Shown piece after piece: positions 1,618 to 15,020 of a DNA stretch of 64,000 nt. Position 1 is the first letter of the stretch; each line of letters starts with the position of its first letter. Source of the stretch: an uncultured Clostridia bacterium (lineage in GTDB: Bacteria; Bacillota; Clostridia; TANB77; CAG-508). The notes below the pieces were generated by a model. The model saw only the letters and a program-made list of their open reading frames with translations, did not search any database and was not told where the DNA came from. Made by a program: the position numbers and the translations under genes. The stretch spans positions 20,499-84,498 of the forward strand of contig CANRHX010000001.1 in the NCBI GenBank assembly GCA_947630545.1, read 5' to 3'.

Positions 1618-2176
1618 TTGAATAATTTAGCTTTAAAGAAGCTATTAAGGAGCAAAGGGGAAAAACTTATTTTAACTGGAAAGATATCAGAAATAGAAGA
1701 TAAAAATGAGAATATTGCTTGTGCAATAGTTTGGTATGAAAACATAAAAATTTTGATTCCACGTACTCATTTAAGAAGATCAAAAGCAAATAAGCCAATT
1801 ATTCGTGGTATGATTGGAGCAGAAATTGAATTTATTGTAATGGAAATAGATACTATATCTAACATTGCAATAGCAAGTAAAATTGATGCAATGGAATTAA
1901 GAAAACAGTTAGAAATACCAAATTTACGAGTAAATGACATAGTAAGGATAAGGATTTTTTAGAAAATCCATATAAAAATATTCGTAAATATTTAATTGAA
2001 GGTGGAGAATATACAGGCAAAGTATTGCATTTCCAAAAGGATATTCTGGCATTATCGTGCAATTAGATAATACAAATATGACTTGTTTAATTAGAGTTCC
2101 TGCAAAATTCAATAATTATCCACATTATCTTAACAATGTGTTGATAAAGTTTAGTGAAATAGATACAAAAAATTGA
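1618..2176 (+). pseudogene. S1-like RNA-binding protein (CvfB/YitL-like), interrupted by frameshifts
   Basis: The 1618-1962 ORF shows S1-like G-x-I-x-x-I...HL patterns. The reading continues in two other frames ('EGGEYTGKVLHFQKD...', 'GIIVQLDNTNMTCLIRVPAKF...') up to about 2176. That implies at least two indels. Confidence 0.3.
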
Positions 2177-2372
2177 TGAAAAAGCTTATTGCATTAGATT
2201 TTTTTTGTATGTTTAAATACAAGTTAGTGCATTTTTATATTGGTTTAGAACCAATACAACTAACATTTATATTATAAAAATATAAATCTGCTTTTTAAGT
2301 TAAAAGCATAAATGTATAATAAAATTTCAATTTTCCTCTTTCTTAATTTTTTGCCAATATAAAGGGCGATAC

Positions 2373-2654
2373 ATGCATTATCATAGAGGAGTAGGACAAG
2401 TATATATTGTATTTATAACAAAATATAATTTACTATACGATATAATTGTTATAGATAAAGGAAACGAGGAGGGATTACTAAAGTTACTTAAAATTGAATC
2501 CCCTGCTATTCCTGAAGCTGACAGGCTTAACCTACTATTTGAAGATGATGAGTGTTTAAACAAAATTGAATGTAACACACCTTATGCTTACTGTTTATAC
2601 CCAGAAATTAAAATAATAAATCGCAAAAAGGTTGATATTAAGCCAAGTAAGTAG
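2373..2654 (+). CDS. hypothetical protein
   Basis: 93-aa ORF. No motif and weak coding signal. Confidence 0.2.
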   Translation: MHYHRGVGQVYIVFITKYNLLYDIIVIDKGNEEGLLKLLKIESPAIPEADRLNLLFEDDECLNKIECNTPYAYCLYPEIKIINRKKVDIKPSK

Positions 2655-2744
2655 TATAATCTTATCAAATGTAAATATTCATATATTTATATTTTTGTTT
2701 ACTAAAAAAAGCAGGGCTACAAATTAATGTAACCTTGCTTTTTC

Positions 2745-3125
2745 TTAATTATTATTATGAGCTAATTTTCTCCTTGCTTCAATTATTTTTCTTTTATATG
2801 TTTTGTAATCGCTTTGTAGCTTTGTTATTTGTTCTTTATACAAATTTTCAATCTTAAAAATTTGCTCTTGTGTCATGTCTTCTTCAGTTATTAATCCATT
2901 TTCATAATTTCTTTGTAATTTTTCTATCTGTTGTTTTTCTACATTTGGTGTTATTTTTATATCATCTAAAAAAGATGATTGGTTTACTTCTTGACTATCG
3001 AAAGAATTATTATCATAACTAGGTTGTTGTATCTCTATTTTATTTTTACCAAAAAGACTTTTAAAAAAATTTTTTATTTTTGCAAAAAAGCCTCTTCCAG
3101 TAACCATTAATGTTTTATTTTCCAT
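2745..3125 (-). CDS. small SHOCT-like domain protein
   Basis: 126 aa. 'LQRNYENGLITEEDMTQEQIFKIENL' fits the SHOCT consensus (L..L...G.IT.EEF). It sits directly downstream of the HD protein on the same strand, with an 11-nt gap. Confidence 0.4.
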   Translation of the reverse strand: MENKTLMVTGRGFFAKIKNFFKSLFGKNKIEIQQPSYDNNSFDSQEVNQSSFLDDIKITPNVEKQQIEKLQRNYENGLITEEDMTQEQIFKIENLYKEQITKLQSDYKTYKRKIIEARRKLAHNNN

Positions 3126-3135
3126 TTGTTACCTC

Positions 3136-5055
3136 CTATTTATTTTTTCTGTCATTGTCTCTTGTTTCTAAAAGTTCTGAATATTCACTTAATAATGATT
3201 TTGCTTCATCATTTTTTCTAGATATATCTTCTTTTAATTCCTTATATCTCTGTAATCTGTTTTTAGAATATAAAATGGATTGGATATATGCTAATGGCAT
3301 TGCTTCTTCAATATTAGACATATTTTCTAATTTTTCAGCTTTGGTACCATCTATTACCTTCTTACCATTTGGCGTTGTTCTTTCAGCAATTTCACTTTGT
3401 GCTCCAGCATCAGCTCTACAAAGTTTTAATAGCATTTGATAATCATCTAATGAAGCGTCATAGCTAGAATTATATTCTCCGGAATTAATCTTTGCTTTAA
3501 CTTCTTGAATATTTATCGGTATAGAAATTGGCCCATCTTTTGTTCTAAAATCAGGTTCTTGTCTATGTGCTAAGGTATAAACTATTGCTCTAATTTCATC
3601 TTTATTATATCCCATTGCTTGAAAATCAAATCTATTCTCTATAACTTTTTCTGCAATTGTTTCTGGACTTATTCCTCTAATGAACTCATGATTTTGCATA
3701 AAAGGTGCTAACTTTGATTTATAGCTTATAAAATCATCATGGTGTGCAATATAGAATGATAATTGTTCTATTTCTTCTTTACTATACCCTAAGCCTTCCA
3801 ATATTGGTTTTGCAACATCAACTGAATGATGAGCATGTCCATAGAAAACCTGTTGACCTGTTCTAGGATTAAAGCTTGATACATCCGGTTTTCCTATATC
3901 ATGAAAAAATGCAGCTACTCTTAATTTTTTAAATTGGTCAGGCGTTAAGCCTATAGGTTTTATTCCTTCAACAGTTCTTAAAGTATGCTCCCATAAATCA
4001 TAACAATGGTGCGAATTTTTTTGTTCAAATCCAACCATTCGAGCAACTTCTGCTCCTAGCTGTTGTTCTAATTCTTCAGGAGTTTTTGATTTAAAAAACT
4101 CAACAATATCATCTCGTACTAAACTGTTTTCAAATATTTGTCTTGGAGTTTCTTCTTGTGAACTTTGTTTTGATTCTTTATTTCTATCATCAAAAAATAA
4201 TTCATCTATATTAAATGGTTCTGTTAATTGTTCTTTATTGCCAAATAATGTTTCTACTCCAGAATCGTAAGATAAATCTGTATCATTTGGAATATACTTT
4301 TTACTAATATACCTATTTTGTAATACAGAATATAATCTATCTTTTAACATTAGATAACATTCAATTGCGTTATTCTGTAATTCACTTACATAATCCATAT
4401 CCCATTCTAGTTGAACCATTGCTGAATTAGGGTTTCCATTCTCCATTATGAATCTACTTAACTCTTCAATCTCGTCTTTTGTTAATCTAGAATTTTCTGT
4501 AATTCCATTTTCTTGGATATCTCTTAATTTAACTTTTATTAATTCTTGTTTCTTCTCATTTATCTGTTGAGATAATTGTTGTAATTCTTCATTTATTTTT
4601 TCTATGTCAGCTTCACAGTTAATTCCTTTTTCACCACCAAACAATTGATTAATATCTAATGATTCTGTGAGTTGCCTTTTGCTTCCCACTAAAGTTTTTC
4701 TTCCATTATAGAAATCATCTCTAGAATAATCTTTTTTTATATTATTCCTATTTATAAAAGTGTTATCTGATATCGAATAAACTTTATCTCCTATTAATAT
4801 ATAGCAATCAATAAAATCATCTTCATAATCAAAATCATAATGCCATTCTTTTTGAATCCATGTTGATTTAGGATTTCCATTATCTATTAAAAAAGAACGT
4901 AACATTACTATTTCATCAGGACTCAAATTAGTTTGGTTTGATATTCCATTTTCTTGAATTTCCATTAATTTTGCTTTTATTAAGTCTTGTTTCTTTTCTT
5001 TTTCTTGTTTAAGTAGTTGTTGTATTTCAAGAGATATCTTTTCTATTCCTTCCAT
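3136..5055 (-). CDS. HD-domain phosphohydrolase with duplicated N-terminal coiled-coil/SHOCT-like modules
   Basis: 639 aa. HD motifs are 'HHCYDLWEHTL', 'AAFFHDIGKP' and 'YIAHHDD'. Residues 1-110 and 150-260 are an internal duplication ('IQENGIS..LSPDEI..NGNP' and 'IQENGIT..LTKDEI..NGNP'). Confidence 0.65.
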   Translation of the reverse strand: MEGIEKISLEIQQLLKQEKEKKQDLIKAKLMEIQENGISNQTNLSPDEIVMLRSFLIDNGNPKSTWIQKEWHYDFDYEDDFIDCYILIGDKVYSISDNTFINRNNIKKDYSRDDFYNGRKTLVGSKRQLTESLDINQLFGGEKGINCEADIEKINEELQQLSQQINEKKQELIKVKLRDIQENGITENSRLTKDEIEELSRFIMENGNPNSAMVQLEWDMDYVSELQNNAIECYLMLKDRLYSVLQNRYISKKYIPNDTDLSYDSGVETLFGNKEQLTEPFNIDELFFDDRNKESKQSSQEETPRQIFENSLVRDDIVEFFKSKTPEELEQQLGAEVARMVGFEQKNSHHCYDLWEHTLRTVEGIKPIGLTPDQFKKLRVAAFFHDIGKPDVSSFNPRTGQQVFYGHAHHSVDVAKPILEGLGYSKEEIEQLSFYIAHHDDFISYKSKLAPFMQNHEFIRGISPETIAEKVIENRFDFQAMGYNKDEIRAIVYTLAHRQEPDFRTKDGPISIPINIQEVKAKINSGEYNSSYDASLDDYQMLLKLCRADAGAQSEIAERTTPNGKKVIDGTKAEKLENMSNIEEAMPLAYIQSILYSKNRLQRYKELKEDISRKNDEAKSLLSEYSELLETRDNDRKNK

Positions 5056-5640: not shown

Positions 5641-6696
5641 TTATAATTTTTTATTTATAATAAATGATGATACTTTACCATCTATATTAGTAATTTGTAA
5701 TATAAAACTATCTAAATTTTTAACGTCATCATTAATATCAATCCATGCAAAATAGCTATTAGAATCTTTTATAGTATTAATATCATTTTTCTTTGAGTAT
5801 AATTCATTATGATTATTATCTAATAATTGAAATTTGTATCCAAAGCATTCATAATCAGAACTATTAAAAGTTATTCCTAAACCTGTATTAGTTGATATTA
5901 CTTTTTCCAAATTAATATTAATGTCATTTGAAATTGTTTTAAATACATAATTTGTTGTGTCCCTATCATTAAATTTATTGTCAATATCTAATTGTAAATT
6001 ATAATTTCCATTTAATTCTTTTTTATTAACGATTCCTTTATCAACTGTGTATAGTGTAATTTTATCAAAACTTATATATAGAGTATTAATTTTAGGAAAT
6101 TGATTTGAAACCAAAGTAAAAGCTACTGATATTTCATTATTTGATTTTTGTATTTTGGTAAATCTCATTGATTGGGCTATATTATTTTTCCAAATATTTT
6201 GTTCTTCACTATCTATATGAATCTGATTATTATTTTCATCTTTTATTTCTAATCCAGATATAGATAAATCTTCAAATTTATCTATATTAAAATTAGTAAC
6301 AAAATCTATAGAAAATATTAAATTAATATCATTTAGTAGAGAATGCTCTAATTTGTATTTAACTCCATTTTCTTCAATATATTTATCATTACTATATTGT
6401 ATATAATTGTTATTAATTGCCTCTTGAAGTTGTTGTTCTCCATATCCATGTTCGCCTAAGTTAAATATGCTTTTTAAATAATCTTTTGCAAATACAATGC
6501 CCGTTGTAATAAAAATACTTGCACATAATCCAGCTATTAATTTATAATATTTATTATATGATTTTTTATTTGCTTTTTCTTGGTCGCTATCATATAAATT
6601 ATTAACTGTAGATATTATTCTGCTTCCTAATTCTTTTGGTATATCGTCTTTTGAACCTAAAGAATCTGAAATAATTTTATCCGTATAATTTTTCAT
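5641..6696 (-). CDS. anti-sigma-factor-like membrane protein
   Basis: 351 aa. It overlaps the sigma-factor gene by 20 nt. Short cytoplasmic N-terminus, one TM ('LIAGLCASIFITTGIVFA'), then an extracellular domain. This is the typical ECF anti-sigma layout. Confidence 0.5.
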   Translation of the reverse strand: MKNYTDKIISDSLGSKDDIPKELGSRIISTVNNLYDSDQEKANKKSYNKYYKLIAGLCASIFITTGIVFAKDYLKSIFNLGEHGYGEQQLQEAINNNYIQYSNDKYIEENGVKYKLEHSLLNDINLIFSIDFVTNFNIDKFEDLSISGLEIKDENNNQIHIDSEEQNIWKNNIAQSMRFTKIQKSNNEISVAFTLVSNQFPKINTLYISFDKITLYTVDKGIVNKKELNGNYNLQLDIDNKFNDRDTTNYVFKTISNDININLEKVISTNTGLGITFNSSDYECFGYKFQLLDNNHNELYSKKNDINTIKDSNSYFAWIDINDDVKNLDSFILQITNIDGKVSSFIINKKL

Positions 6697-7219
6697 TTAA
6701 TTCTCCTTTCAAATTATTTTTTATTTTATTTTTTGCCCTTTTTATAATACTTTTTACAGTATTTTCATTAATTTTCGTTATTTTAGATATTTCTTTTGTC
6801 GTATATAAATTTTTATAATATAAAATCATAATAATTTTTTCTTTATCATTCAAACAGTCTAGTAATTCATGAAATTCTATATTAACATCTATATCATTTG
6901 AATTATAATTTCCCTGAGTATTATCATAAAATTTTGAGTCTTGAATAGATATCACATCTGCTTTATTTTTCTTATTATATAACTTGTAACACTCATTAAT
7001 TAGTACTTTGATTATCCATTGTTTTAATGATGATTTTGATTTTAATTTAGACATATTCTTATAAGTAATAATTATGGTTTCTTGTATTGCATCGAGTGCA
7101 TCATCTTTATTTCCAGTTTTAGATAAAGCTATTTTATATAAATCACTTTGCAGTTCTAAAAATATAAGAGAAAATGCATTTTTATCTCCAGATATAGCTT
7201 TATTTATTAATTCTTCCAT
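6677..7219 (-). CDS. ECF-type RNA polymerase sigma-70 family factor
   Basis: 180 aa. It has sigma region 2 ('DALDAIQETIIITYKN') and a region 4 HTH ('TTKEISKITKINENTVKSIIKRAKNKI'). Confidence 0.7.
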   Translation of the reverse strand: MEELINKAISGDKNAFSLIFLELQSDLYKIALSKTGNKDDALDAIQETIIITYKNMSKLKSKSSLKQWIIKVLINECYKLYNKKNKADVISIQDSKFYDNTQGNYNSNDIDVNIEFHELLDCLNDKEKIIMILYYKNLYTTKEISKITKINENTVKSIIKRAKNKIKNNLKGELNEKLYG

Positions 7220-7443
7220 TCTTTCTCCTTTCGTACCAAATAGGTTTTAATCGCGATTCTATTTAATAGATAAAAAAATATTTAAAATAGTTGCATTTTA
7301 TATATAAAATTAATATATAAAGTGATTGTAACACAAAAAAGTACTTTATGTAAAATATGCAAAACATAAAAAATACACTCCAAATATTAGACTTTTAATA
7401 TTTAAAGTGTATTTTTTAATTGTTCTATAAGATGTAAAAATGG

Positions 7444-8703
7444 TTATGGAACAATTCTTACTGTTCCATTTTCTTCAATTTGGACATTAGATATTGGAAT
7501 TGACACTAACGGACGGATTCCTCTATTACCTGTATAGCTGTAGCTACCGTTGGACATAGCCGATTGTTTATTATACATAACCCGTCCATCGTCACCAACA
7601 CATGGTGAAGCTAGCCAGTAGCTTTTTCCTGTGTAATATAATCCATTTAATATAGTGGTTCGTATTGGATTTCCGCCGTTTCCATCGTCATATAAATAAA
7701 ATGGTTTATCCTGTAGATATCCTTCATCTGTTACATCACTATCTTCCCAAGTCACAGTAGTAGAAGGTGCGTCTTTTCCTCCTGTTTCTTTTGCCTCATT
7801 CCAAGATAATGCTATTAATTCTTTTGTTGGCGCTCCTACTGCATATGTTCCTTTTGGTGCTGACTTTGATATAAACTCTGTCCAATTTTTTGGGTCACAT
7901 AAATAAATTGTAGCACGAATTTTTTTATTTGTAATTAATTTACCACCTAATTTTGTCTTCCATCTTTCATTATAATCTGCTCCATATGTTACATTACTAT
8001 ATGTATAACCTGAATCAGCTTCCGCATTTTTTTCACCAAATAAATCACCGGTATTTTCAGAACCTGAACTACCCAAAAATTTGTTGCTCGCAATATCCGT
8101 CGAAATTAAAAACATTTCTTTTTCGCTTGCATAGAATACTCTCCAACCTCCACTATAACTTGACGAATATCCTGAATAATTGACATCTTGTCCTATTGCA
8201 TCATTTATTTTTTCTTTCTTCTCGGCGTTCGTAAGTATTTCTCCAGTACCTCCTGTTGATGCTACTGTATCGCTCCATGTTATTCCACCGTTTTCTTCTA
8301 TTGTTCCAGTCACTGTGTATGATTTTGTTTCTAATGTTATTGTATAATCTGTTACTCCTGATGACTCTAGCAATTGTTTATTTCTTTCTTTGGCTTTTCT
8401 TACTGCTTCTTTTGCGGCTTCTACCACTTTTCCTCGTGTACTTGCTCCTGTTGTTACATTTCCTTTTACATATTCATTATTATAATAATTTAATAATGCC
8501 TCTTGTACCTCCATTGCTATTTCATCTTTAGCTCCTGCTATAGCATCTTTTTGTGCTGCCTCCGTTGCTTTTTGTGGCGCACTGTTGTTTCCTGATAGCA
8601 TCGCGATTGTTACTCCTGCTAAAATTAACAAAACAATAATAGTTATGACTAATGCAATTAATGTAATTCCATCATTTTTACGTCCTTTTCCTTTAAAATC
8701 CAT
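7444..8703 (-). CDS. secreted protein with prepilin-like N-terminal segment
   Basis: The N-terminus 'KGKGRKNDG|ITLIALVITIIVLLILAGV' resembles a class III (type IV pilin) signal, but has Ala instead of Glu at +5. The probable start is the ATG at 8703, which has an AAAGGTGG RBS. The C-terminal region is Gly/Ser/Thr-rich. Confidence 0.4.
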   Translation of the reverse strand: MDFKGKGRKNDGITLIALVITIIVLLILAGVTIAMLSGNNSAPQKATEAAQKDAIAGAKDEIAMEVQEALLNYYNNEYVKGNVTTGASTRGKVVEAAKEAVRKAKERNKQLLESSGVTDYTITLETKSYTVTGTIEENGGITWSDTVASTGGTGEILTNAEKKEKINDAIGQDVNYSGYSSSYSGGWRVFYASEKEMFLISTDIASNKFLGSSGSENTGDLFGEKNAEADSGYTYSNVTYGADYNERWKTKLGGKLITNKKIRATIYLCDPKNWTEFISKSAPKGTYAVGAPTKELIALSWNEAKETGGKDAPSTTVTWEDSDVTDEGYLQDKPFYLYDDGNGGNPIRTTILNGLYYTGKSYWLASPCVGDDGRVMYNKQSAMSNGSYSYTGNRGIRPLVSIPISNVQIEENGTVRIVP

Positions 8704-8931
8704 ACTTTTACCACCTTTCATTTGTAACATTAAGTATTTGACTTAACGACTTTTCTATAACTCGTATTATATCAATATAATAGTCTTTTGACAATATTTT
8801 TTAGAAAAAATTTTACAAAAAATTTAAAAAATAAAATTAATGCAATTATTACGCAAAGTGAGTAAAATAAAAGCTTTTAGAGAATTTTATTTAAATTTAA
8901 ATTACCCTTAAGTCAAATACTTCACGACTTT

Positions 8932-9882
8932 TTATAATTTTTCTAAATATTTCTTTTGCAATTTATAATTTGAATGAATATATTTATTCAGTGTAATTTC
9001 AACACTAGAATGCCCTAAAACTTCACTCAAACTTTTTATGTCCATTCCTACCTCTAAGCAATTATTTGCAAAAGTATGTCGCAAAGCATGAAATTTATAA
9101 GATTTTATTTTACAATTCTTAAGTTTCTGCTTAAAGAATTTTTGATAATTTCTTGGTTCAATAAACTTTTCATTATTACCAGTCAAGAAAAAATCATTTT
9201 CTTTATATTTCTTCTTTAACGGTTTTAAAATTTCATACAATTTATTTGATATAGGTATTGTTCTTATTGAATGAATTGTTTTTGGAACATCAATTATAAC
9301 TTTAGTTCCATTTTCTTTATTCTCATAAACCCTTTGTAATGTTTTTCTTACGAACAATAATTTCTTATCTAAATTAATATTTTCCCACTTTAAAGCACAG
9401 ACTTCTCCAATTCTTAATCCAGTATTTAAACAAATTAATATTCCTATACTTTTTAAAGAATTTTCTCTAATACAAGCATTCTCAAGTTTTCCTCTTTCTT
9501 TATTACTTAATATTTCTACTTTTTCTTGCATTAGTTTTGGACTTTTAATTTTCTTTATTTTCAAATTACAATTATATTCTTCATTTCCATATGCCAATAT
9601 TGATTTTAAAATACACAATATATCTCTTGTTGTTTTGCTTGAAAGTTCATCCATTAGATTTATTACAAATTTATTAAAATTATAATTTTGCAATGCTTCT
9701 ATTTCAATATCTCCAAAAGTCGGCATGATATATCTATTAATAGAATAAACATATTTGCAATAAGTTGATTCTTTTATTGATATTTTCTTTATTTCTAGCC
9801 ATTCATTTACTAATTTCCTAAAATTTAATTTATCATCTTCTTTCTTTACTATATTTTTTTTGAGCTTATTTAATAATTTCAT
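8932..9882 (-). CDS. tyrosine-type site-specific recombinase/integrase
   Basis: 316 aa. The C-terminal catalytic motif is 'HALRHTFANNCLEVGMDIKSLSEVLGHSSVEITLNKYIH' (R..H..R/H..Y). Confidence 0.8.
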   Translation of the reverse strand: MKLLNKLKKNIVKKEDDKLNFRKLVNEWLEIKKISIKESTYCKYVYSINRYIMPTFGDIEIEALQNYNFNKFVINLMDELSSKTTRDILCILKSILAYGNEEYNCNLKIKKIKSPKLMQEKVEILSNKERGKLENACIRENSLKSIGILICLNTGLRIGEVCALKWENINLDKKLLFVRKTLQRVYENKENGTKVIIDVPKTIHSIRTIPISNKLYEILKPLKKKYKENDFFLTGNNEKFIEPRNYQKFFKQKLKNCKIKSYKFHALRHTFANNCLEVGMDIKSLSEVLGHSSVEITLNKYIHSNYKLQKKYLEKL

Positions 9883-9985
9883 CTGTTACATCGCCTTTCT
9901 ATTTTTGTTATAATAATATCAAATATTTGTAATTTTTCTAATTAGCATGCAAAAAATAAAAAATGCAAAAAAATTTTAAAAAAAA

Positions 9986-10014
9986 TTGACAAATTATAAA
10001 TTATAATGTATAAT
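9986..10014 (+). promoter_or_regulatory. consensus sigma-A promoter (TTGACA-17-TATAAT)
   Basis: TTGACA is at 9986-9991, followed by a 17-nt spacer and TATAAT at 10009-10014. Both hexamers are perfect. Confidence 0.5.
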
Positions 10015-10113
10015 CTTAGCAGATTCGGTATAGCACCTTATCTGCAAGATTAATTTTATAAAATAAAACAATTCGCAAAATACTGTAATTTTGTGTTTAT
10101 TCTTGCAATAAGG

Positions 10114-10140
10114 TCTATCTGGTATCAGATAGATTTTTTT
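10114..10140 (+). terminator. leader hairpin plus T-run (attenuator-like) just upstream of the RBS of the GHKL ATPase gene
   Basis: An 8-bp stem (tctatctg / cagataga) with loop gtat is followed by TTTTTTT at 10134-10140. The GGAGG RBS is at 10144 and the ATG at 10156. Confidence 0.45.
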
Positions 10141-10155
10141 ATTGGAGGTTTAATT

Positions 10156-11736
10156 ATGAACGAAAAAAGAAAAGAAGAATTCACAAAAGAAAACATGGTT
10201 TCAAATGAACCAAATGCAGCTATATTAATAGATGCATTACAAAACATTGGTTATGACAATATTTCTGCGATAACAGATATTGTCGACAATAGTATTGATG
10301 CTGGTGCAACAAAAATACATATCCAGCTTGAAAAAGAAAAAGAATCATTAAAAATAATGATTGTTGACAATGGAAAAGGAATGACTAAAGATGTGCTAGA
10401 TCAAGCCTTAAGATTAGGATCCGACACATTACATGATGGATTATCAGATTTAGGAAAATTCGGAATGGGGCTAAGCACTGCAGGTCTTGCATTAGCAAAT
10501 AGAACAACAGTATTTACGAAAAGTACGGAAGAGAATATCATATATAAAAGTATGACAGATGTTAATATAATAAAAAGAGAAAATGCATTTATAAAATTAC
10601 TTTGTGAAGCAGATGAATTAGATAAAATGCGATTTGAACATCTTGTAAATAATGAAAGTGGAACAATTGTAATTTTAGAAGATTGTATAGGAATAAAATT
10701 AAGTGAATTTTCAGCATTAAAAGGAAAAATCATAAAAAACTTATCTAGAATTTTCAGAAAATTTATGGATAGGACTGAATTTTGGGTAAACGATACAAAA
10801 ATAGAGCCAGACGATCCTTTAAGACTAGGATATGAAGAATTTCCAGGTACACTAATAAGTGAAGACGATTATGATGTAAAATGGAAAGATATAGGAGGAA
10901 TAGAAAGGCAAGGCACAATACATATAAAAATAGCATCTTTACCAGAATGCCCAAGACCAGTTGCTACTAAATTAGGAATAAATATGAAAAATGAAGGTTT
11001 TTCAGTTTTAAGAAACAATAGAGAGATTTTATTTGGATATTTACCAGACTGGGAAGGAATAGTAAGACATAATGATTTAAATAGATTTAGAGGAGAAATT
11101 TCATTCTCATCTGACATGGATTTTGCAATGGGTGTAAACTTTAGAAAAAACGGTGTTGATATGGTAGATTCTATAGATAATGCATTAAGAGTTCAAATTT
11201 CACCACAAATTAAAACAGTAAGAAAAAAATATGAAACTGTAACTGAAACTTCAGATGAAGAAAAAGAAGAACATACAGTTGCACAAAAAATAATAAATAA
11301 AATGTCAAATACATTAACGTTACCAAAAGTAAAAAAAGAAATTAGAGAATCTAAAGAAAATAAAGAGGACAATAAGAATAATGAAAATGAAGAAGAAACA
11401 AAGAAAGAAAAGGTACGTACGCCTATAAAAACAGAAAATATAAATGCTGTTGCAGAATTTGAATTAAAACATATGGGTGAAACCGGAAACATTTTTGAAA
11501 CGAGCCAAATAGGAAAGAAAATTATAATTTCATGGAATATAGATCATGTTTTCTATAAAAAGTTTATTGCTGAAAATGTAGCAAATCAAAATGTAGTTAG
11601 ATTTGCAGATTTCTTGATTTATACTTTAGCTTCTGCACAAATTCAGTATATGGCAGATGATGAAGAAAAACTAATCATAATGGATAATATTATATCAACA
11701 ATGAGTGCAAATATAAGAAATCTATTGAAGAATTAA
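10156..11736 (+). CDS. GHKL-family ATPase (HATPase_c_3 / MORC-like ATP-binding protein)
   Basis: The Bergerat-fold motifs are 'DIVDNSIDAGA' (N box), 'DNGKGMT' (G1) and 'GKFGMGLS' (G2). The C-terminal half contains a K/E-rich low-complexity stretch. The start is chosen at the ATG with a GGAGG RBS. Confidence 0.7.
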   Translation: MNEKRKEEFTKENMVSNEPNAAILIDALQNIGYDNISAITDIVDNSIDAGATKIHIQLEKEKESLKIMIVDNGKGMTKDVLDQALRLGSDTLHDGLSDLGKFGMGLSTAGLALANRTTVFTKSTEENIIYKSMTDVNIIKRENAFIKLLCEADELDKMRFEHLVNNESGTIVILEDCIGIKLSEFSALKGKIIKNLSRIFRKFMDRTEFWVNDTKIEPDDPLRLGYEEFPGTLISEDDYDVKWKDIGGIERQGTIHIKIASLPECPRPVATKLGINMKNEGFSVLRNNREILFGYLPDWEGIVRHNDLNRFRGEISFSSDMDFAMGVNFRKNGVDMVDSIDNALRVQISPQIKTVRKKYETVTETSDEEKEEHTVAQKIINKMSNTLTLPKVKKEIRESKENKEDNKNNENEEETKKEKVRTPIKTENINAVAEFELKHMGETGNIFETSQIGKKIIISWNIDHVFYKKFIAENVANQNVVRFADFLIYTLASAQIQYMADDEEKLIIMDNIISTMSANIRNLLKN

Positions 11737-11829
11737 AGCCCTATAAATATTAAATTATAAAAATATGCACATAATAAAAAATTATGATATAATAAGCACA
11801 AATTAATAAATTAAGAGGAGGAAATTAAA

Positions 11830-12207
11830 ATGAGTAGAGAATTAAAAATTAAAAAATGTACTAAATGTGGAGCAATAGTAAAAGTATTGCAAGATTGTAA
11901 TTGCCCATGTGGAATTCAATGTTGTGGTGAAGAAATGAAAACATTAGAACCAAATTCAGTAGATGCAGCAGTTGAAAAGCATGTACCAACATATGAAGTA
12001 AGAGATGGAAAAATATTTGTAAAGGTAAATCATGTAATGGAAGAAGATCACTTCATAGAATGGATAAGTATAGTATTTGAAGATAAAGAAGTAACAACAT
12101 ATCTAAAACAAGGAGAAGAAGCTGTTGCTCATTGTAAATATGTACCAGGATCAACAATTTATTCATATTGCAATAAACATGGTTTATGGAAAACAGAAGT
12201 AAAATAA
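11830..12207 (+). CDS. dfx: desulfoferrodoxin (superoxide reductase)
   Basis: 125 aa. An N-terminal desulforedoxin Cys cluster (CTKCG...CNCPCG..CC) is followed by a neelaredoxin-type domain (H...HC). Confidence 0.85.
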   Translation: MSRELKIKKCTKCGAIVKVLQDCNCPCGIQCCGEEMKTLEPNSVDAAVEKHVPTYEVRDGKIFVKVNHVMEEDHFIEWISIVFEDKEVTTYLKQGEEAVAHCKYVPGSTIYSYCNKHGLWKTEVK

Positions 12208-12247
12208 ATAAATATAAAGAGTGGAATTAAGAAAGGAAAAGTAGACA

Positions 12248-12643
12248 ATGGGAATAAAGGAAAAAGCATGTGGATGTATCATAATTGATAATGGAAAAGT
12301 TCTATTAATAAAACAATTATCTCAAGCATGGGGTTTCCCTAAAGGACATACTGAACATGATGAATCTGAAGAAGAAACAGCTAAAAGGGAAGTAAAAGAA
12401 GAAACAAACATAGATGTAGAAATAAATAGCAAAAAAAGATATTCTATAGAATACATAACAGATAAAGGAAACAATAAAGAAGTTGTATTTTTTCTTGCTA
12501 AAAAAACCGGAGGTACATTAAAAAAACAAGATAGTGAAATACTTGAGGCAAAGTGGTTAAGTTTTCATGAAGCAATAGAAACTATTTCATATGAAAATAC
12601 AAAAGAATTATTTATAAAAGTTTTAAAAGAAAATAAATTATAA
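12248..12643 (+). CDS. NUDIX hydrolase
   Basis: Nudix box 'GFPKGHTEHDESEEETAKREVKEETNI' (GX5EX7REUXEEXGU). Confidence 0.7.
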   Translation: MGIKEKACGCIIIDNGKVLLIKQLSQAWGFPKGHTEHDESEEETAKREVKEETNIDVEINSKKRYSIEYITDKGNNKEVVFFLAKKTGGTLKKQDSEILEAKWLSFHEAIETISYENTKELFIKVLKENKL

Positions 12644-12663
12644 ATTTTATATACCATAATAAA

Positions 12664-12710
12664 AAGAGGGATTGAATATTGAATTTTTCAATATTTAACC
12701 CCTTTTTGTT
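12664..12710. terminator. bidirectional hairpin between convergent genes
   Basis: The imperfect palindrome gggattgaatattgaa/ttcaatatttaacccc is flanked by A-run and T-run sequence. It lies between the NUDIX gene and the SPFH gene. Confidence 0.35.
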
Positions 12711-12720
12711 ATAAACAATA

Positions 12721-13929
12721 TTAAATTTTATTTCCACATTCTGGACAGAATTTTGTGCCAGGTGATAATTTTGCTCCACAGTTTGAACAGAATTTAGGAG
12801 TTGATGCTTCAGAATCAGATTTTGATTCATCAGAACTATCTGAACTTGTGTCTTCTGCAGGCTGTACAGGTGCTGCTTGCGAATTTGGTGATTGTGGATC
12901 TTGTGGCATAACTGTATTTTCATTTACTCTAGAGTTTGCAAGACCTTCTTGGCTAAAAGCACCTTGAACTGTGCTTTGTATTGCATTTCCTGCAACACCA
13001 CCAGTTTGCATATTCATCATACCAAGTCCCATAAATCCAGTTGCTGCACCATTAGCATTACCAGCTGCTGTTTGCATAACATCAATAATACGACCTTGTT
13101 GCATATATGCATTAGAGTTGTGCTCGTATTCAGTAATTTTTCTTTCAGATTCTTCATCCAAAGAAACTCCTTCAACAGCAAAACCAACTAATTGAATACC
13201 TCTATTTCTAATAGGTTCATCAAAAACAGAATTTGCCATCATTACCTTAATTTCATCTGTTTGGCTAGGTAATTCCATTGCAGGAATTTGATATTTTTGA
13301 GTACCTAATTCGTTAACAACATTTTGGAAAGAATCTAAAACCTCAGATTGGATTTGCTCAAGTAATTGATCTTTTGTATATACACTAGCTGTTCCAGCAA
13401 TTTCATTCATAAATACTGCAGGATTTTCTAACTTAAATGTATATTTTCCAAAACATTTAATTTTTAGGCTAAGAGGCAAAAGTTTTCCAGTCATTTGATT
13501 TGGAATTGGATGTGCCCAATCTTGGAAAAGAATAGGCGTTTTAGTTCCAAAAGGATTGTTTATAATTTCCTTAATATTAAAGTAAAATACTGCTTGTTGT
13601 TTTGCAGTAGCACCATCATATGTAAATCTTTGCCACATTTCTTTAAATACTGCGCCAAATTGTCCAGCAAAGAAAGATGGAGATGAAGAAGAATCGAATG
13701 TATAAATACCTTCTTCAGCTGAAGCATCTAAAACTCTACCGTTATCATATATAATTGCACATTGACCAGGTCCTACTATAATTGTACTTTTATTTGTAAT
13801 AACTCCTGTTGGAGTTGTAACTTTTTTCATAAGAATATCATTTCCTAAATCTTCACATCTAATTGCCTCCTTCCATTGATCTTTAAATGTGCTACCAATA
13901 GCACCTACGGCTGCTTTAATTAATCCCAT
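12721..13929 (-). CDS. SPFH/band-7 family protein with C-terminal zinc ribbon (YdjI-like)
   Basis: 402 aa. The C-terminus 'CSNCGAKLSPGTKFCPECG' is a zinc ribbon. The body resembles the COG4260-type stomatin/prohibitin family with a Zn-ribbon. Confidence 0.55.
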   Translation of the reverse strand: MGLIKAAVGAIGSTFKDQWKEAIRCEDLGNDILMKKVTTPTGVITNKSTIIVGPGQCAIIYDNGRVLDASAEEGIYTFDSSSSPSFFAGQFGAVFKEMWQRFTYDGATAKQQAVFYFNIKEIINNPFGTKTPILFQDWAHPIPNQMTGKLLPLSLKIKCFGKYTFKLENPAVFMNEIAGTASVYTKDQLLEQIQSEVLDSFQNVVNELGTQKYQIPAMELPSQTDEIKVMMANSVFDEPIRNRGIQLVGFAVEGVSLDEESERKITEYEHNSNAYMQQGRIIDVMQTAAGNANGAATGFMGLGMMNMQTGGVAGNAIQSTVQGAFSQEGLANSRVNENTVMPQDPQSPNSQAAPVQPAEDTSSDSSDESKSDSEASTPKFCSNCGAKLSPGTKFCPECGNKI

Positions 13930-13979: not shown

Positions 13980-14888
13980 TTAATATGATGCTCTTTCTAA
14001 ATTAGATAAGCACCAATTGTATTCACCAGTTGTAATAATGCTTCCACAATATTCACATTTTCCTGCTGAAGTAATTTGTGTTGGAGCTCCACAATTTGGA
14101 CAATTTGTAGTGTTAACTGCAGTTGTACCAGGCTTTGTTTTTACTCCCATTTTTCTTTCAAAAGTTAAAAAATAAGAATTTGTTCTTTCAATATTTTTAT
14201 CTCCCTTTATGACTTGTTTTGTTGTTGCATCAATTATATAATCCTGCATTCGAGAATTTAATTTTATAGTTAAAAGTTCTTTATCACCAGAAATTCTATA
14301 ATCATACAAATTAGCATAGTTAACACAAATTCTATCCATTACATTTATTGTATTGTTATCAATATAGCCTTGTAACTGATTTTTGTGTTGCTCAAATAGT
14401 GCATTAGTTTCAAATACCCTAATTTCAGACCAATCGCGTTTTGTCCAAGCTTGTTGTAAACGAACAAATAAATCTTTTGACCAAGCAATAATGTCATCTT
14501 TATTAAATAATTCATCATGAGCCTGAATTTCTGATACAATTTGATCTTCAGATTTTCTTGCAGTTGGGTTTAAATTTGGATTTGGAATTGAGGAATGTGG
14601 TCTATTATTTCTATTATTATTACTAACGGCAATAATAATTATTATTATTATAAATAAGATTATACCACCAGGACTAGAAAAAAATATAAAACTAGATCCA
14701 CCTGAAGATGATGAATAATCACTATCCCAAGAACTATCACTATCCCAAGAGCTAGAACTACCACTATCATAAGATTCAAAACTTCCAACATCTGCAAAAC
14801 TAAAGCCAGATAAAAAAATTATAAAAGTAGAAGCAATAACTAGAAGAACTAATAGCTTTATAAGTTTGTCATTGGTTTTTAAATTCAT
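13980..14888 (-). CDS. membrane protein with Ser/Asp-rich segment, Tim44-like domain and C-terminal zinc ribbon
   Basis: 302 aa with an N-terminal TM. It has an 'SWDSDSSWDSDYSSSSGG' low-complexity stretch, a second TM (IIIIIIIAV), and 'CPNCGAP...CEYCGS' at the C-terminus. It is in an operon with the SPFH gene. Confidence 0.45.
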   Translation of the reverse strand: MNLKTNDKLIKLLVLLVIASTFIIFLSGFSFADVGSFESYDSGSSSSWDSDSSWDSDYSSSSGGSSFIFFSSPGGIILFIIIIIIIAVSNNNRNNRPHSSIPNPNLNPTARKSEDQIVSEIQAHDELFNKDDIIAWSKDLFVRLQQAWTKRDWSEIRVFETNALFEQHKNQLQGYIDNNTINVMDRICVNYANLYDYRISGDKELLTIKLNSRMQDYIIDATTKQVIKGDKNIERTNSYFLTFERKMGVKTKPGTTAVNTTNCPNCGAPTQITSAGKCEYCGSIITTGEYNWCLSNLERASY

Positions 14889-15020
14889 AAATATCTCCTT
14901 TCACATAAATTATATTTTTTTTGTCGGTTAATGTCAATAGAAATAATTACATAGAAATTATAAAATTAAAAAAAAAGGAAATACTTTATCTATAAAAATA
15001 TTTAGAAAGGATGATTAATT

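What the first reader, a model, noticed from the sequence alone, without database searches (positions are those of the whole stretch)
9986..11736. GHKL (MORC/HATPase_c_3-like) ATPase gene next to an integrase, behind a perfect consensus promoter and an attenuator-type leader
A textbook TTGACA-17-TATAAT promoter at 9986-10014 starts an approximately 135-nt leader. The leader ends in a stem-loop plus T7 terminator at 10114-10140, only 3 nt before the GGAGG RBS of a 527-aa Bergerat-fold ATPase. The ATPase has the motifs DIVDNSIDAGA, DNGKGMT and GKFGMGLS, and a C-terminal K/E-rich tract. Expression of the ATPase would require antitermination (riboswitch, RNA-binding protein, or sRNA), or the leader is an independent sRNA. 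Standalone HATPase_c_3 proteins at integrase-proximal positions are recurrent components of anti-phage defence islands.
Basis: partly seen in the sequence, partly recalled or inferred. Interest (0 to 1): 0.6.

Follow-up and report, generated by a model that had tools for sequence, protein, structure and literature searches.

The report
Conserved attenuator leader before MORC-like ATPase
A stand-alone MORC-like ATPase gene of uncultured gut Clostridia carries its own near-perfect promoter and a conserved, previously uncatalogued RNA leader that can fold as either a terminator or an antiterminator, so the gene appears to be switched at transcription termination; the neighbouring integrase is incidental.

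Summary
There is a 12/12 consensus promoter (9986-10014), a leader of about 135 nt, a strong intrinsic terminator (10112-10140) 3 nt before GGAGG, and a 526-aa GHKL ATPase (10156-11736) whose model matches MORC2/3/4 best.

The main new result is that the leader is conserved and specific to this gene. Its 5' hairpin motif (H1) occurs 17 times in 185,579 species genomes, and 16 of those sit directly upstream of an ATPase homologue (44-88% identity).

Across 26 distinct leaders:
- The promoter ends 6-8 nt before H1 in 24.
- A long-range helix (P1) and the terminator covary.
- H1's loop and 3' half are complementary to the terminator's 5' arm, with 3 compensatory cells.

This is a terminator / antiterminator / anti-antiterminator design. 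Rfam has no match.

Relatives at about 85% identity share only promoter, leader and ORF with the window. A 99.5%-identical contig lacks the integrase.

Distant homologues (32-39%) carry a different covarying hairpin, UUGGU...AUCGA.

Best reading: a factor that binds H1, possibly the ATPase itself, promotes termination. The effector and the ATPase's role (defence?) are not shown.

The parts
9986..10014 (+). Sigma-70-type promoter, TTGACA-17-TATAAT, 12/12 matches.
   Evidence: Homologous loci have a 10-12/12 promoter with 17-nt spacing in 24 of 26 leaders, ending 6-8 nt before H1 in 24 of 26.
10021..10043 (+). H1, AGAUUCGGUAUAGCACCUUAUCU. This is the 5'-terminal hairpin: a 4-bp outer stem, a UC/UU internal loop, a GGU:ACC inner stem and an AUAGC pentaloop. 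I propose it is the anti-antiterminator and the effector-binding site.
   Evidence: The sequence is nearly invariant in 26 leaders and 98.6-98.9% of cells pair, with only G-U-preserving changes. On its own it is weak, -4 kcal/mol. A second hairpin of the same architecture (H2), with compensatory stem changes, occurs inside the longer leader variants. The motif is specific to this gene in 185,579 genomes.
10044..10049 (+). P1 5' strand, GCAAGA.
   Evidence: It pairs with 10101-10106. The helix is kept with different sequences in homologues: CAUAAGUUC/GAACUUAUG, UACAAGUC/GACUUGUG, GCAGGU/ACUUGC.
10074..10095 (+). Variable internal hairpin inside the P1-enclosed region.
   Evidence: This region differs in length (41-102 nt) and content among homologues.
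10101..10106 (+). P1 3' strand, TCTTGC.
   Evidence: Compensatory changes are seen at two P1 pairs: CG<->UA and UA<->AU.
10107..10121 (+). Purine linker AAUAA plus the terminator 5' arm GGUCUAUCUG. In the alternative fold this segment pairs with H1's 3' half and loop, forming the antiterminator.
   Evidence: 90.5% of cells pair, against 49% or less when the register is slid. Two pairs carry double changes, 3 cells in all: L014 ACAG:CUGU, L137 G:C and L133 C:G. The same alternative fold is predicted in most homologues, within 0-7 kcal/mol of the terminator fold in 25 of 26 leaders. It is the minimum-energy fold of the nascent 10021-10121 transcript, -25.9 kcal/mol, z = -5.7.
10112..10140 (+). 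Intrinsic terminator: 10-12 bp stem, GUAU loop, U7 tract.
   Evidence: Across 25 sequences 96.8% of cells pair and 3 pairs carry compensatory changes.
10144..10148 (+). GGAGG ribosome-binding site, 7 nt before the ATG.
   Evidence: Read from the sequence. It is conserved in homologues.
10156..11736 (+). 526-aa solo MORC/paraMORC-like GHKL ATPase. It has a GHKL domain, an S5-like transducer domain, a disordered K/E-rich linker (about aa 384-431) and a conserved domain of about 100 aa at the C-terminus.

Best explanation
Window 9986-11736 is a self-contained expression module: a near-consensus promoter, a structured leader of about 120 nt, and a single MORC/paraMORC-like GHKL ATPase gene.

The leader is a three-element transcription attenuator.
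- The transcript starts at H1, a weak but almost invariant hairpin.
- A long-range helix, P1, follows directly.
- After a short purine linker comes a strong intrinsic terminator, 3 nt before the RBS.

H1's loop and 3' half (AUAG-C-ACCUUAU) are complementary to the linker plus the terminator's 5' arm (AUAAGGU-CUAU).
- If H1 opens, P1 extends into a long antiterminator helix, and RNA polymerase reads through into the ATPase gene.
- If H1 is held closed, the terminator forms and only a short leader RNA of about 120 nt is made.

Shown here (computationally): the elements themselves, their conservation, covariation in P1, in the terminator and in the antiterminator pairing, and the exclusive link to this gene family.

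Inferred: H1 is the binding site of an effector that promotes termination, so the default state is read-through. The effector is most likely the ATPase itself or a complex of it (autogenous control). I put the chance of that at roughly one in three. The ATPase's cellular role is unknown. A conflict or defence function is plausible from its MzaB/paraMORC kinship and patchy distribution, but it is not shown.
For: 1. Specificity. The H1 motif GATTNGGTANAGNACCTTRTCT hits 17 places in 185,579 species genomes. Sixteen of them lie directly upstream of an ATPase homologue at 44-88% identity, all in Clostridia or Lachnospiraceae MAGs. Four hits to a looser pattern in viral contigs lie in unrelated sequence and are chance matches.

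2. Conserved anatomy in 26 distinct leaders, whose ATPases are 44-100% identical to the window's.
- The promoter scores 10-12/12 with 17-nt spacing in 24 of 26, and ends 6-8 nt before H1 in 24 of 26.
- P1 is kept with at least 6 different sequences.
- The terminator has 96.8% of cells paired and 3 compensatory pairs.

3. The switch.
- The antiterminator pairing has 90.5% of cells paired, against 49% or less when slid. It has 3 compensatory cells, reached by only 3 of 500 shuffles.
- The same alternative fold is predicted in most homologues, within 0-7 kcal/mol of the terminator fold in 25 of 26.
- H1 alone is only -4 kcal/mol, whereas the nascent transcript up to the terminator's 5' arm folds as the antiterminator at -25.9 kcal/mol, z = -5.7.

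4. RNA level rather than DNA level.
- Changes within H1 are transitions that keep G-U pairing: A20<->G in about half of the sequences, and C17->U.
- An H1-like second hairpin with compensatory stem changes lies inside the transcript in the longer variants.

5. No leader peptide is possible. The leader has no ATG and no internal RBS.

6. Discrete module. Relatives at about 85% identity share only 9923/9983-11737 with the window.

7. The leader type tracks the protein clade. 49 of 79 distant homologues (32-39% identity, other environments) carry a different covarying hairpin, UUGGU-stem-AUYGA, at the transcript start and/or just before the SD. This is what one expects if the RNA's partner is the protein itself.
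Against: - There are no transcript data. The start site, termination and read-through are all predicted.
- H1 is too conserved to show compensatory changes within itself, so its fold rests on compatibility and on the paralogous H2 copies.
- Support for the antiterminator pairing comes from only three informative sequences.
- Nothing shows that the ATPase binds RNA. Its C-terminal domain model is poor (pLDDT 65), and it has no significant structural match, only weak similarity to the Hsp90/HtpG C-terminal dimerisation domain at E 0.2 or higher.
- A small-molecule ligand or another trans-acting factor would fit the RNA data equally well.
- The catalytic base position of motif I is Asp (D41), not the Glu of MutL, MORC and Hsp90, so the ATPase chemistry is untested (the Glu residues are from my own knowledge).
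Confidence: 0.55

Rival explanations
1. The leader is a riboswitch. H1, P1 and the junction form an aptamer for a small molecule, ion or nucleotide signal. Ligand binding stabilises H1 and causes termination.
For: The terminator/antiterminator design and the near-invariant nucleotides in H1's loop and internal loop are typical of OFF riboswitches. No regulator gene is adjacent.
Against: The motif is tied to one protein family only, whereas most riboswitch classes control several kinds of gene. The conserved core is a small 23-nt hairpin, sometimes duplicated, which looks more like a protein site. Distant homologues use a different hairpin. No Rfam family matches.
Confidence: 0.15
2. The terminated leader of about 120 nt is itself the product. 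It would be an abundant small RNA that partners or antagonises the ATPase, in the manner of a type III toxin-antitoxin pair, or that acts in trans. Terminator read-through would simply set the RNA:protein ratio.
For: A consensus promoter followed by a strong terminator 15 nt before the ORF is the ToxI/ToxN layout (the ToxIN layout is from my own knowledge). RNA and protein are strictly co-inherited as one module. Hairpin modules are repeated in long variants and in distant clades. In L027 the leader is intact although the ORF is interrupted.
Against: There are no tandem repeats in the leader. The protein is a GHKL ATPase, not an endoribonuclease of a known type III toxin fold. The conserved antiterminator complementarity is not needed for a fixed-ratio device.
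Confidence: 0.15
3. The element is a constitutive partial terminator. It only damps expression from a very strong promoter and is not regulated.
For: A strong promoter and a strong terminator are both conserved.
Against: This does not explain the near-invariance of H1, its fixed position at +1, P1, or the conserved and partly compensatory complementarity between H1 and the terminator's 5' arm.
Confidence: 0.07
4. H1 is a DNA operator at +1 to +23 for a dimeric repressor (inverted repeat AGAT..GGT / ACC..ATCT), not an RNA element.
For: It lies where operators often lie, and it is an imperfect palindrome.
Against: About half of the homologues have GTCT instead of ATCT, and one has ACT instead of ACC. 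These changes break the DNA palindrome but keep G-U pairs. H1-like copies lie deep inside the transcript. H1 covaries with the terminator arm about 90 nt away. No repressor gene is linked.
Confidence: 0.04
5. One reading: the ATPase is cargo of an integrase-borne defence island, and its function is tied to that mobile element.
For: In the window a tyrosine recombinase lies 273 nt away, divergently. Some homologues lie near R-M genes, integrase fragments, transposases or AbiE genes. The N-terminal half resembles MzaB.
Against: L003, at 99.5% identity, has the module without the integrase. One subclade keeps the module between rplT and spoVA. PADLOC recognises no complete system. There are no copies in phage records or viral contigs at more than 33% identity.
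Confidence: 0.1

Closest known systems
PyrR-type attenuation of the Bacillus pyr operon (anti-antiterminator / antiterminator / terminator leaders; my own knowledge)
   Same: It uses the same three mutually exclusive RNA elements. A small upstream hairpin, when stabilised by its bound factor, prevents the antiterminator and so lets an intrinsic terminator form just before the coding region.
   Different: The H1 sequence is unrelated to the PyrR binding loop. The effector here is unknown. The controlled gene is a solo MORC-like ATPase, not a biosynthetic operon. H1 sits at the extreme 5' end of the transcript.
Autogenous mRNA-leader control (ribosomal-protein leaders, ThrRS, T4 RegA/gp32; my own knowledge)
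   Same: The leader structure is found only with one protein family and diversifies together with it. In distant clades the hairpin sits next to the SD, as translational operators do.
   Different: Binding of this ATPase to RNA has not been shown, and GHKL/MORC proteins are known as DNA- or protein-directed machines.
Type III toxin-antitoxin loci (ToxIN, CptIN, TenpIN; my own knowledge)
   Same: The order is promoter, short non-coding RNA, intrinsic terminator, then the protein gene immediately after. RNA and protein are inherited as one compact, horizontally mobile module.
   Different: There are no tandem RNA repeats. The protein is not an endoribonuclease. The leader also contains an antiterminator.
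Prokaryotic MORC / paraMORC GHKL ATPases (Iyer, Abhiman and Aravind 2008, PMC2292703)
   Same: It has a GHKL domain, an S5 domain and a family-specific C-terminal extension. Its distribution is patchy and laterally mobile. An E-x3-H motif after the S5 region (H373 invariant) recalls paraMORC2.
   Different: Those families are defined by operons with SF-II helicases, nucleases and methylases. This clade is overwhelmingly a solo gene with its own promoter and RNA leader.
MzaB of the MZA anti-phage system (NCBIfam NF041932, PADLOC PDLC02204)
   Same: It is the best family-level hit, but only for the N-terminal 200 or so residues. Seven distant homologues are followed by a Sigma70_r4/wHTH protein that resembles the C-terminus of MzaA.
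   Different: The score is 97 bits against an equivalog cutoff of 850. No MzaA, C, D or E gene is present in the window.
ANTAR-regulated leaders (two small hairpins with conserved loop positions that overlap a terminator; my own knowledge)
   Same: They use small hairpins with conserved A and G loop positions, sometimes in pairs, that control an intrinsic terminator.
   Different: The loop here is a pentaloop, A-N-A-G-N, not a hexaloop. The hairpins do not overlap the terminator. The predicted logic is reversed (binding causes termination). No ANTAR gene is linked.

Membership tests
GHKL / Bergerat-fold ATPase (Pfam HATPase_c_3, PF13589) | The profile match is above the gathering threshold. 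| tested here: met
   92.5 bits against a cutoff of 25, aa 37-170.
GHKL / Bergerat-fold ATPase (Pfam HATPase_c_3, PF13589) | Motifs I-IV are present: (E/D)xxxNxxD, DxGxG, GxxGxG, and a conserved Thr. | tested here: met
   D41-x3-N45-x2-D48, D71-N-G-x-G75, G100-K-F-G-M-G105 and T170 are all invariant in 13 homologues. Position N-4 is Asp rather than Glu.
MORC / paraMORC (GHKL + S5 transducer module) | A GHKL domain is followed by an S5-fold domain, and the overall fold is closest to MORC. | tested here: met
   The top Foldseek PDB hits are MORC2, MORC3 and MORC4 (E 1e-15 to 1e-14, about 390-415 aligned columns), then SMCHD1 and Hsp90. The model has a mean pLDDT of 71.5.
MORC / paraMORC (GHKL + S5 transducer module) | The gene lies in a conserved operon with an SF-II helicase, nuclease or methylase (R-M context), as in Iyer et al. 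2008. | tested here: not met
   It is a solo gene in the window and in nearly all homologous loci. Only L010-13 and L140 lie next to methylase or DpnII genes.
MORC / paraMORC (GHKL + S5 transducer module) | The sequence can be assigned to one of paraMORC1-5, for example through the ExxxH motif of paraMORC2. | tested here: inconclusive
   H373 is invariant and is preceded by E, D or N at -4. The published family alignments were not available for comparison.
MzaB (MZA anti-phage system) | The equivalog score cutoff is reached, over the full length. | tested here: not met
   NF041932 scores 96.9 bits against a cutoff of 850 and covers only profile positions 1-212 of 480. PADLOC scores 87.8 bits.
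MzaB (MZA anti-phage system) | Partner genes MzaA, C, D and E are adjacent. | tested here: not met
   The neighbours are an integrase, desulfoferrodoxin and a NUDIX protein, and none has a PADLOC hit.
MutL (housekeeping mismatch repair) | The TIGR00585 or PRK00095 cutoffs are reached and the MutL C-terminal domain is present. | tested here: not met
   The score is 40.7 bits against a cutoff of 180, covering aa 36-85 only, and no MutL_C domain is found.
Known RNA families (Rfam 15: riboswitches, leaders, sRNAs) | A covariance-model hit at or near the gathering score. | tested here: not met
   There is no hit on the leader in the window. The best is 16 bits against a cutoff of 71, E about 0.7. 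There are none in 9 homologous loci or in 14 distant loci.
Terminator/antiterminator attenuator with an anti-antiterminator (PyrR-like logic) | An intrinsic terminator lies immediately upstream of the ORF, conserved and covarying. | tested here: met
Terminator/antiterminator attenuator with an anti-antiterminator (PyrR-like logic) | An alternative helix sequesters the terminator's 5' arm, and that helix is mutually exclusive with an upstream hairpin. | tested here: met
   The evidence is energy predictions plus 3 compensatory cells, with no experiment.
Terminator/antiterminator attenuator with an anti-antiterminator (PyrR-like logic) | An effector binds the upstream hairpin and changes read-through. 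| not testable with these tools
   This needs in vitro transcription and binding assays.
Type III toxin-antitoxin | The antitoxin is an RNA made of tandem direct repeats. | tested here: not met
   There are no repeats in 10021-10140.
Type III toxin-antitoxin | The toxin is an endoribonuclease of the ToxN, CptN or TenpN type. | tested here: not met
   The protein is a GHKL/MORC-like ATPase.
Leader-peptide attenuator | A short ORF with an RBS lies inside the leader. | tested here: not met
   There is no ATG and no SD in 10021-10140.

The most novel reading that the evidence does not exclude
The RNA is not merely a regulator but the second component of a two-part RNA-protein module that is conserved across phyla. 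Every clade of this solo MORC-like ATPase travels with a strong promoter and clade-specific 5' hairpins. The ATPase would recognise these hairpins, either as a sensor or guard of infection or stress, or as a cofactor. That would make this a new kind of single-gene-plus-RNA conflict system and the first RNA-linked bacterial MORC.
Probability: 0.2. Interest if true: 0.8.

Novelty: new variant of a known kind. Interest (0 to 1): 0.6.

Why it matters
Bacterial MORC/paraMORC ATPases are widespread, and their eukaryotic relatives are chromatin silencers. Even so, the solo bacterial forms have no known function or regulation.

This work gives a defined, compact and conserved RNA switch that is found only with one such family, and a second hairpin class in its distant relatives. 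That makes two questions directly testable:
- What signal turns a bacterial MORC-like ATPase on?
- Does a GHKL ATPase recognise RNA?

It also adds a candidate structured RNA class from uncultured gut Clostridia that is absent from Rfam. Finally, it shows that the "integrase-proximal defence gene" label would have been misleading.

Tried and rejected
- Rfam at gathering and at E<=10 on the leader and on 23 homologous loci found nothing.
- PADLOC and NCBIfam gave only a partial match to MzaB.
- No tRNA lies in the window, so the integrase has no tRNA att site nearby.
- An inverton idea (recombinase plus promoter flanked by inverted repeats) was dropped. The only good inverted repeat is P1, 51 nt apart and transcribed, and the integrase is not conserved.
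- The leader-peptide and T-box ideas were dropped, because there is no ORF and no T-box sequence.
- Covariance model R1 with default filters missed a true leader (L039). Its failure to hit distant loci is therefore uninformative, and I used regex and folding instead.
- tblastn against phage and plasmid records found only distant "ATP-binding protein" hits.
- The viral-contig motif hits are chance.
- The fold of the C-terminal domain could not be assigned: pLDDT 65 and no significant match.
- Cluster look-up gave no organism or product names.
- Literature searches found no description of a leader RNA for GHKL or paraMORC genes.
- A resemblance of H1 to the tRNA D-loop (UCGGUAGAGCA in L010) was noted, but it has no further tRNA-like structure and I judged it coincidental.
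Full report
**1. What is in the window**

- The sequence at 9986-10014 is TTGACA, 17 nt, TATAAT, a 12/12 match.
- The 64-kb window holds only two such sites, against 0.13 expected from shuffles.
- A start 7 nt after the -10 box falls at about 10021.
- At 10112-10140 there is a 10-12 bp hairpin (GGUCUAUCUG / GUAU / CAGAUAGAUU) followed by U7. It folds at -12.8 kcal/mol, z = -5.2.
- GGAGG follows 3 nt later, at 10144-10148.
- The ATG is at 10156, not 10157. The ORF ends at 11736 and encodes 526 aa.
- The translation contains DIVDNSIDAGA, DNGKGMT, GKFGMGLS and a K/E-rich tract.
- The whole leader folds better than all 200 shuffles, z = -4.0.
- The neighbour at 8932-9882 on the minus strand is a 316-aa Xer-like tyrosine recombinase.
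- The downstream genes are desulfoferrodoxin and a NUDIX hydrolase.
- The window has no tRNA.

**2. The protein**

- Pfam HATPase_c_3 scores 92.5 bits against a cutoff of 25.
- NCBIfam and PADLOC match MzaB only over the first 200 or so residues, at 97 bits against a cutoff of 850. MutL models are far below their cutoffs.
- An AlphaFold2 model built on 13 homologues has a mean pLDDT of 71.5. Its best PDB matches are MORC2, MORC3 and MORC4, then SMCHD1 and Hsp90, at E 1e-15 to 1e-13.
- The architecture is a GHKL domain, an S5-like transducer, a disordered charged linker (about aa 384-431), and a C-terminal domain of about 100 aa with three strands and three helices.
- The C-terminal domain is conserved in all relatives. 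Modelled alone it reaches only pLDDT 65. It has no significant structural match, only weak resemblance to the Hsp90/HtpG C-terminal dimerisation domain at E 0.2 or higher.
- The ATP-binding motifs are invariant. The residue four positions before the Mg-binding Asn is Asp (D41) rather than Glu.
- Full-length relatives form a moderate family. There are 219 representatives of 50%-identity clusters at E<=1e-30, nearly all 480-560 aa. 527 sequences passed E<=1e-5 in the indexed search.
- Iyer et al. (PMC2292703) describe prokaryotic MORC and paraMORC1-5 families that work in R-M-like operons. This protein fits that radiation architecturally, possibly paraMORC2 (an E-x3-H motif with H373 invariant). 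It lacks their defining gene neighbourhoods.

**3. The leader is conserved and specific to this gene**

- Upstream regions of homologues, fetched by exact protein look-up, showed the same 5' block and 3' block even where the ATPase is only 44-56% identical.
- I scanned one genome for each of 185,579 species for GATTNGGTANAGNACCTTRTCT. It gave 17 hits.
- Sixteen of these lie directly upstream of an ATPase homologue. One (L033) is an unrelated chance match.
- All sixteen are Clostridia, Lachnospiraceae, Eubacterium or Roseburia MAGs.
- Four hits to a looser pattern in viral contigs lie in unrelated sequence and are chance matches.
- Altogether 26 distinct leaders were collected.
- Rfam 15 has no match on the window's leader at E<=10, nor in 9 homologous loci.

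**4. Anatomy of the leader**

- *Promoter.* 24 of 26 leaders have 17-nt spacing and 25 of 26 score 10-12/12. The -10 box ends 6-8 nt before the first base of H1 in 24 of 26. H1 is therefore the 5' end of the RNA.
- *H1 (window 10021-10043).* It reads AGAU-UC-GGU-[AUAGC]-ACC-UU-AUCU.
  - It is almost invariant, and 98.6-98.9% of cells pair.
  - The only changes are U-A to U-G and G-C to G-U.
  - These changes keep an RNA hairpin but break a DNA palindrome.
- *H2.* About half of the leaders carry a second hairpin of the same design inside the transcript. It has an outer stem, a U-rich internal loop, a 3-4 bp inner stem and an AUAGN or AUAAA loop. Its stems differ from H1 by compensatory changes, for example AGU:ACU and AUAU:AUAU.
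- *P1.* It starts directly after H1 (GCAAGA at 10044-10049, pairing with UCUUGC at 10101-10106).
  - It is kept with at least six different sequences.
  - RNAalifold finds compensatory changes at two of its pairs.
- *P1-enclosed region.* It varies from 41 to 102 nt. Many leaders have a conserved UUUUCUUUGUUUAUUUU tract there.
- *Linker.* A purine-rich linker of 3-6 nt follows in most leaders and is longer in a few.
- *Terminator.* 96.8% of cells pair and three pairs carry compensatory changes. No shuffle of 500 reaches the observed covariation score.
- *No leader peptide.* The leader has no ATG and no SD, so a leader peptide is excluded.
- *No repeats.* The leader contains no tandem repeats.

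**5. The switch**

- H1's loop and 3' half (AUAG-C-ACCUUAU) are complementary to the linker plus the base of the terminator's 5' arm (AUAAGGU-CUAU).
- For each leader I compared the best structure with the terminator enforced against the best structure with the terminator's 3' arm blocked.
  - In most leaders the blocked structure is the same: P1 extended through H1's 3' half and loop into the terminator's 5' arm.
  - It is only 0-7 kcal/mol less stable than the terminator state in 25 of 26 leaders.
- On an ungapped core alignment of 21 distinct sequences, 90.5% of the cells of this pairing are paired. When the register is slid, 49% or less pair.
- Two pairs carry changes on both sides:
  - L014 has loop ACAG with arm CUGU, instead of AUAG with CUAU.
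  - L137 has U-G changed to G-C.
  - L133 has U-A changed to C-G.
- Only 3 of 500 shuffles reach the observed number of compensatory cells or the covariation score. This is modest but consistent support.
- H1 alone is worth only -4 kcal/mol.
- The nascent transcript up to the terminator's 5' arm (10021-10121) folds as the antiterminator at -25.9 kcal/mol, z = -5.7.
- From this I infer that unassisted folding favours read-through. Something that holds H1 closed would then allow the terminator to form.
- This is the logic of PyrR-type anti-antiterminator control (the comparison is from my own knowledge).

**6. A discrete module, not linked to the integrase**

- blastn of four relatives at about 85% identity (L021, L027, L031, L037) matches the window only from 9923-9983 to 11737. 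That is the promoter, the leader and the ORF, ending at the stop codon. The flanks are unrelated.
- L003 is 99.5% identical from 9917 to 13646. Upstream of that point it carries an unrelated ECF sigma / anti-sigma pair and no integrase.
- Other contexts of the module:
  - beside tRNA-Met (L004, L005, L007, L027);
  - between ilvD and an ABC transporter (L014);
  - between rplT and spoVA, in a whole subclade that also has a conserved 62-85 aa membrane ORF downstream (L017, L134-139);
  - next to DpnII-type R-M genes and DUF6119 (L010-13);
  - near AbiE genes (L008);
  - near integrase fragments (L140).
- This is the pattern of a patchily distributed accessory gene. It does not show a defence island, and PADLOC finds no system.
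- No close copy exists in phage records, plasmid records or viral contigs.

**7. Distant relatives have a different leader**

- Eighty metagenomic loci hold full-length homologues at 32-39% identity, from soil, groundwater and sediment. None has H1.
- 49 of the 79 examined carry one to three hairpins of the form UUGGU-stem-loop-stem-AUYGA.
  - The base of the hairpin has two conserved G-U wobbles, which is an RNA signature rather than a DNA one.
  - The next stem positions covary: G-C 33 against A-U 21, and U-A 40 against C-G 14.
- One copy usually ends 5-10 nt before the SD.
- Another copy, or a flipped version GUCAUCGG...CUGGUGAC, starts 7-10 nt after a consensus-like promoter.
- Some copies precede mini-ORFs of 4-8 codons.
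- Rfam has no family for this hairpin.
- Seven loci without hairpins instead have a downstream protein with Sigma70_r4 and several winged helices, resembling the C-terminus of MzaA.
- So the family as a whole travels with a strong promoter and clade-specific 5' hairpins.
- I take this as the main, indirect argument that the RNA's partner is the ATPase itself. Binding next to the SD would repress translation in those clades, and binding to H1 would cause termination in Clostridia.

**8. Verdict**

- Its "attenuator-type leader" reading is upheld and much strengthened.
- The integrase and defence-island framing is not upheld.
- The leader is a candidate new structured-RNA class, a new variant of transcription attenuation, dedicated to a solo MORC-like ATPase.
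- Still open: the effector (protein, ligand, or none), whether the terminated RNA has a role of its own, and what the ATPase does. No paper in the searchable library describes such a leader.
- Interest is 0.6. This is a concrete, testable RNA switch on a poorly understood protein family, but all functional steps are inferred.

Noticed in passing
window 47901-48497 (+): A full-length OLE (ornate large extremophilic) RNA, Rfam RF01071, 362.9 bits, E = 5e-103. It occurs in what appears to be an AT-rich (about 22-36% GC) uncultured gut Clostridia genome.
   Followed up: no
window 14909-14937 (-): This is the only other perfect TTGACA-17-TATAAT site in the window. It lies just upstream of the Tim44-like ORF (13980-14888, minus strand), which is followed by an SPFH/zinc-ribbon gene (12721-13929).
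   Followed up: no
window 5641-9916, compared with L003 1-1398: Everything left of 9917 (integrase 8932-9882, a 428-aa ORF at 7444-8730, and an ECF sigma plus DUF4179 anti-sigma at 5641-7219) is replaced in a 99.5%-identical contig. There it is an unrelated ECF sigma / zf-HC2 anti-sigma pair with no protein-level similarity. This is a strain-variable spot that abuts the ATPase module.
   Followed up: partly
L042-L125, for example L108 about 800-1020, L104 about 2900-2985, L058 about 2810-2995: Distant ATPase homologues carry one to three covarying hairpins, UUGGU-stem-loop-AUYGA, with two conserved G-U wobbles at the base. The hairpins lie at the transcript start and just before the SD. They have no Rfam match.
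   Followed up: partly
L108, L111, L115, L088, L053, L069, L070 (100-220 nt upstream of the ATPase): Some upstream copies of that hairpin are followed by an SD and a mini-ORF of 4-8 codons. Several of these mini-ORFs are Pro-rich near the end (MEAFKPP*, MVTIKPP*, MKPLHPT*, MPPI*). They may be leader peptides.
   Followed up: no
L114 2273-2319 (+): An Acido-Lenti-1 RNA (RF01687, 40.9 bits against a gathering score of 37) lies about 120 nt downstream of the ATPase stop in an Acidobacteria-like contig.
   Followed up: no
L027 (OV788638.1, complete 1.55-Mb MAG chromosome) 1848-3560: The leader is intact, but the ATPase reading frame is interrupted by a stop at locus position 2770, and the rest continues in another frame. 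This is either a pseudogene or an assembly error.
   Followed up: no
L004 and L007, compared with L005 and L027 (upstream of the module): In L005 and L027 the module follows a complete tRNA-Met. In L004 and L007 only the 3' part of that tRNA remains next to the module, and unrelated genes (HTH, beta-propeller) lie upstream. This is the footprint of an element integrated into the tRNA.
   Followed up: no
L017 6532-6780, L137 3056-3313, L135 3056-3244 (also L018, L023, L028, L029, L134, L136, L138, L139): In the 44-47% identity subclade the module sits between rplT and spoVA. It is followed, within a few to about 14 nt, by a conserved 62-85 aa ORF. The 82- and 85-aa versions have a hydrophobic N-terminal segment that may span the membrane, and all share an NYSDVE(K/R)IAE motif. 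The window has no such ORF.
   Followed up: partly
L046 4530-6026, L073 1638-3359, L075 2870-4066 (also L062, L074, L079, L084): Seven distant homologues lack the hairpin leader. They are followed by a protein of 400-570 aa with Sigma70_r4 and several winged-helix domains (plus an RNAP alpha-CTD-like domain in L046), weakly similar to the C-terminus of MzaA. This may be a DNA-binding partner.
   Followed up: partly
L010 6744-8294; L140 3116-3895: In the roughly 50% identity subclade the ATPase is followed by DUF6119 (516 aa), or by a 259-aa protein with a weak Abi_C match. It is preceded by DpnII-type methylase and endonuclease genes.
   Followed up: no
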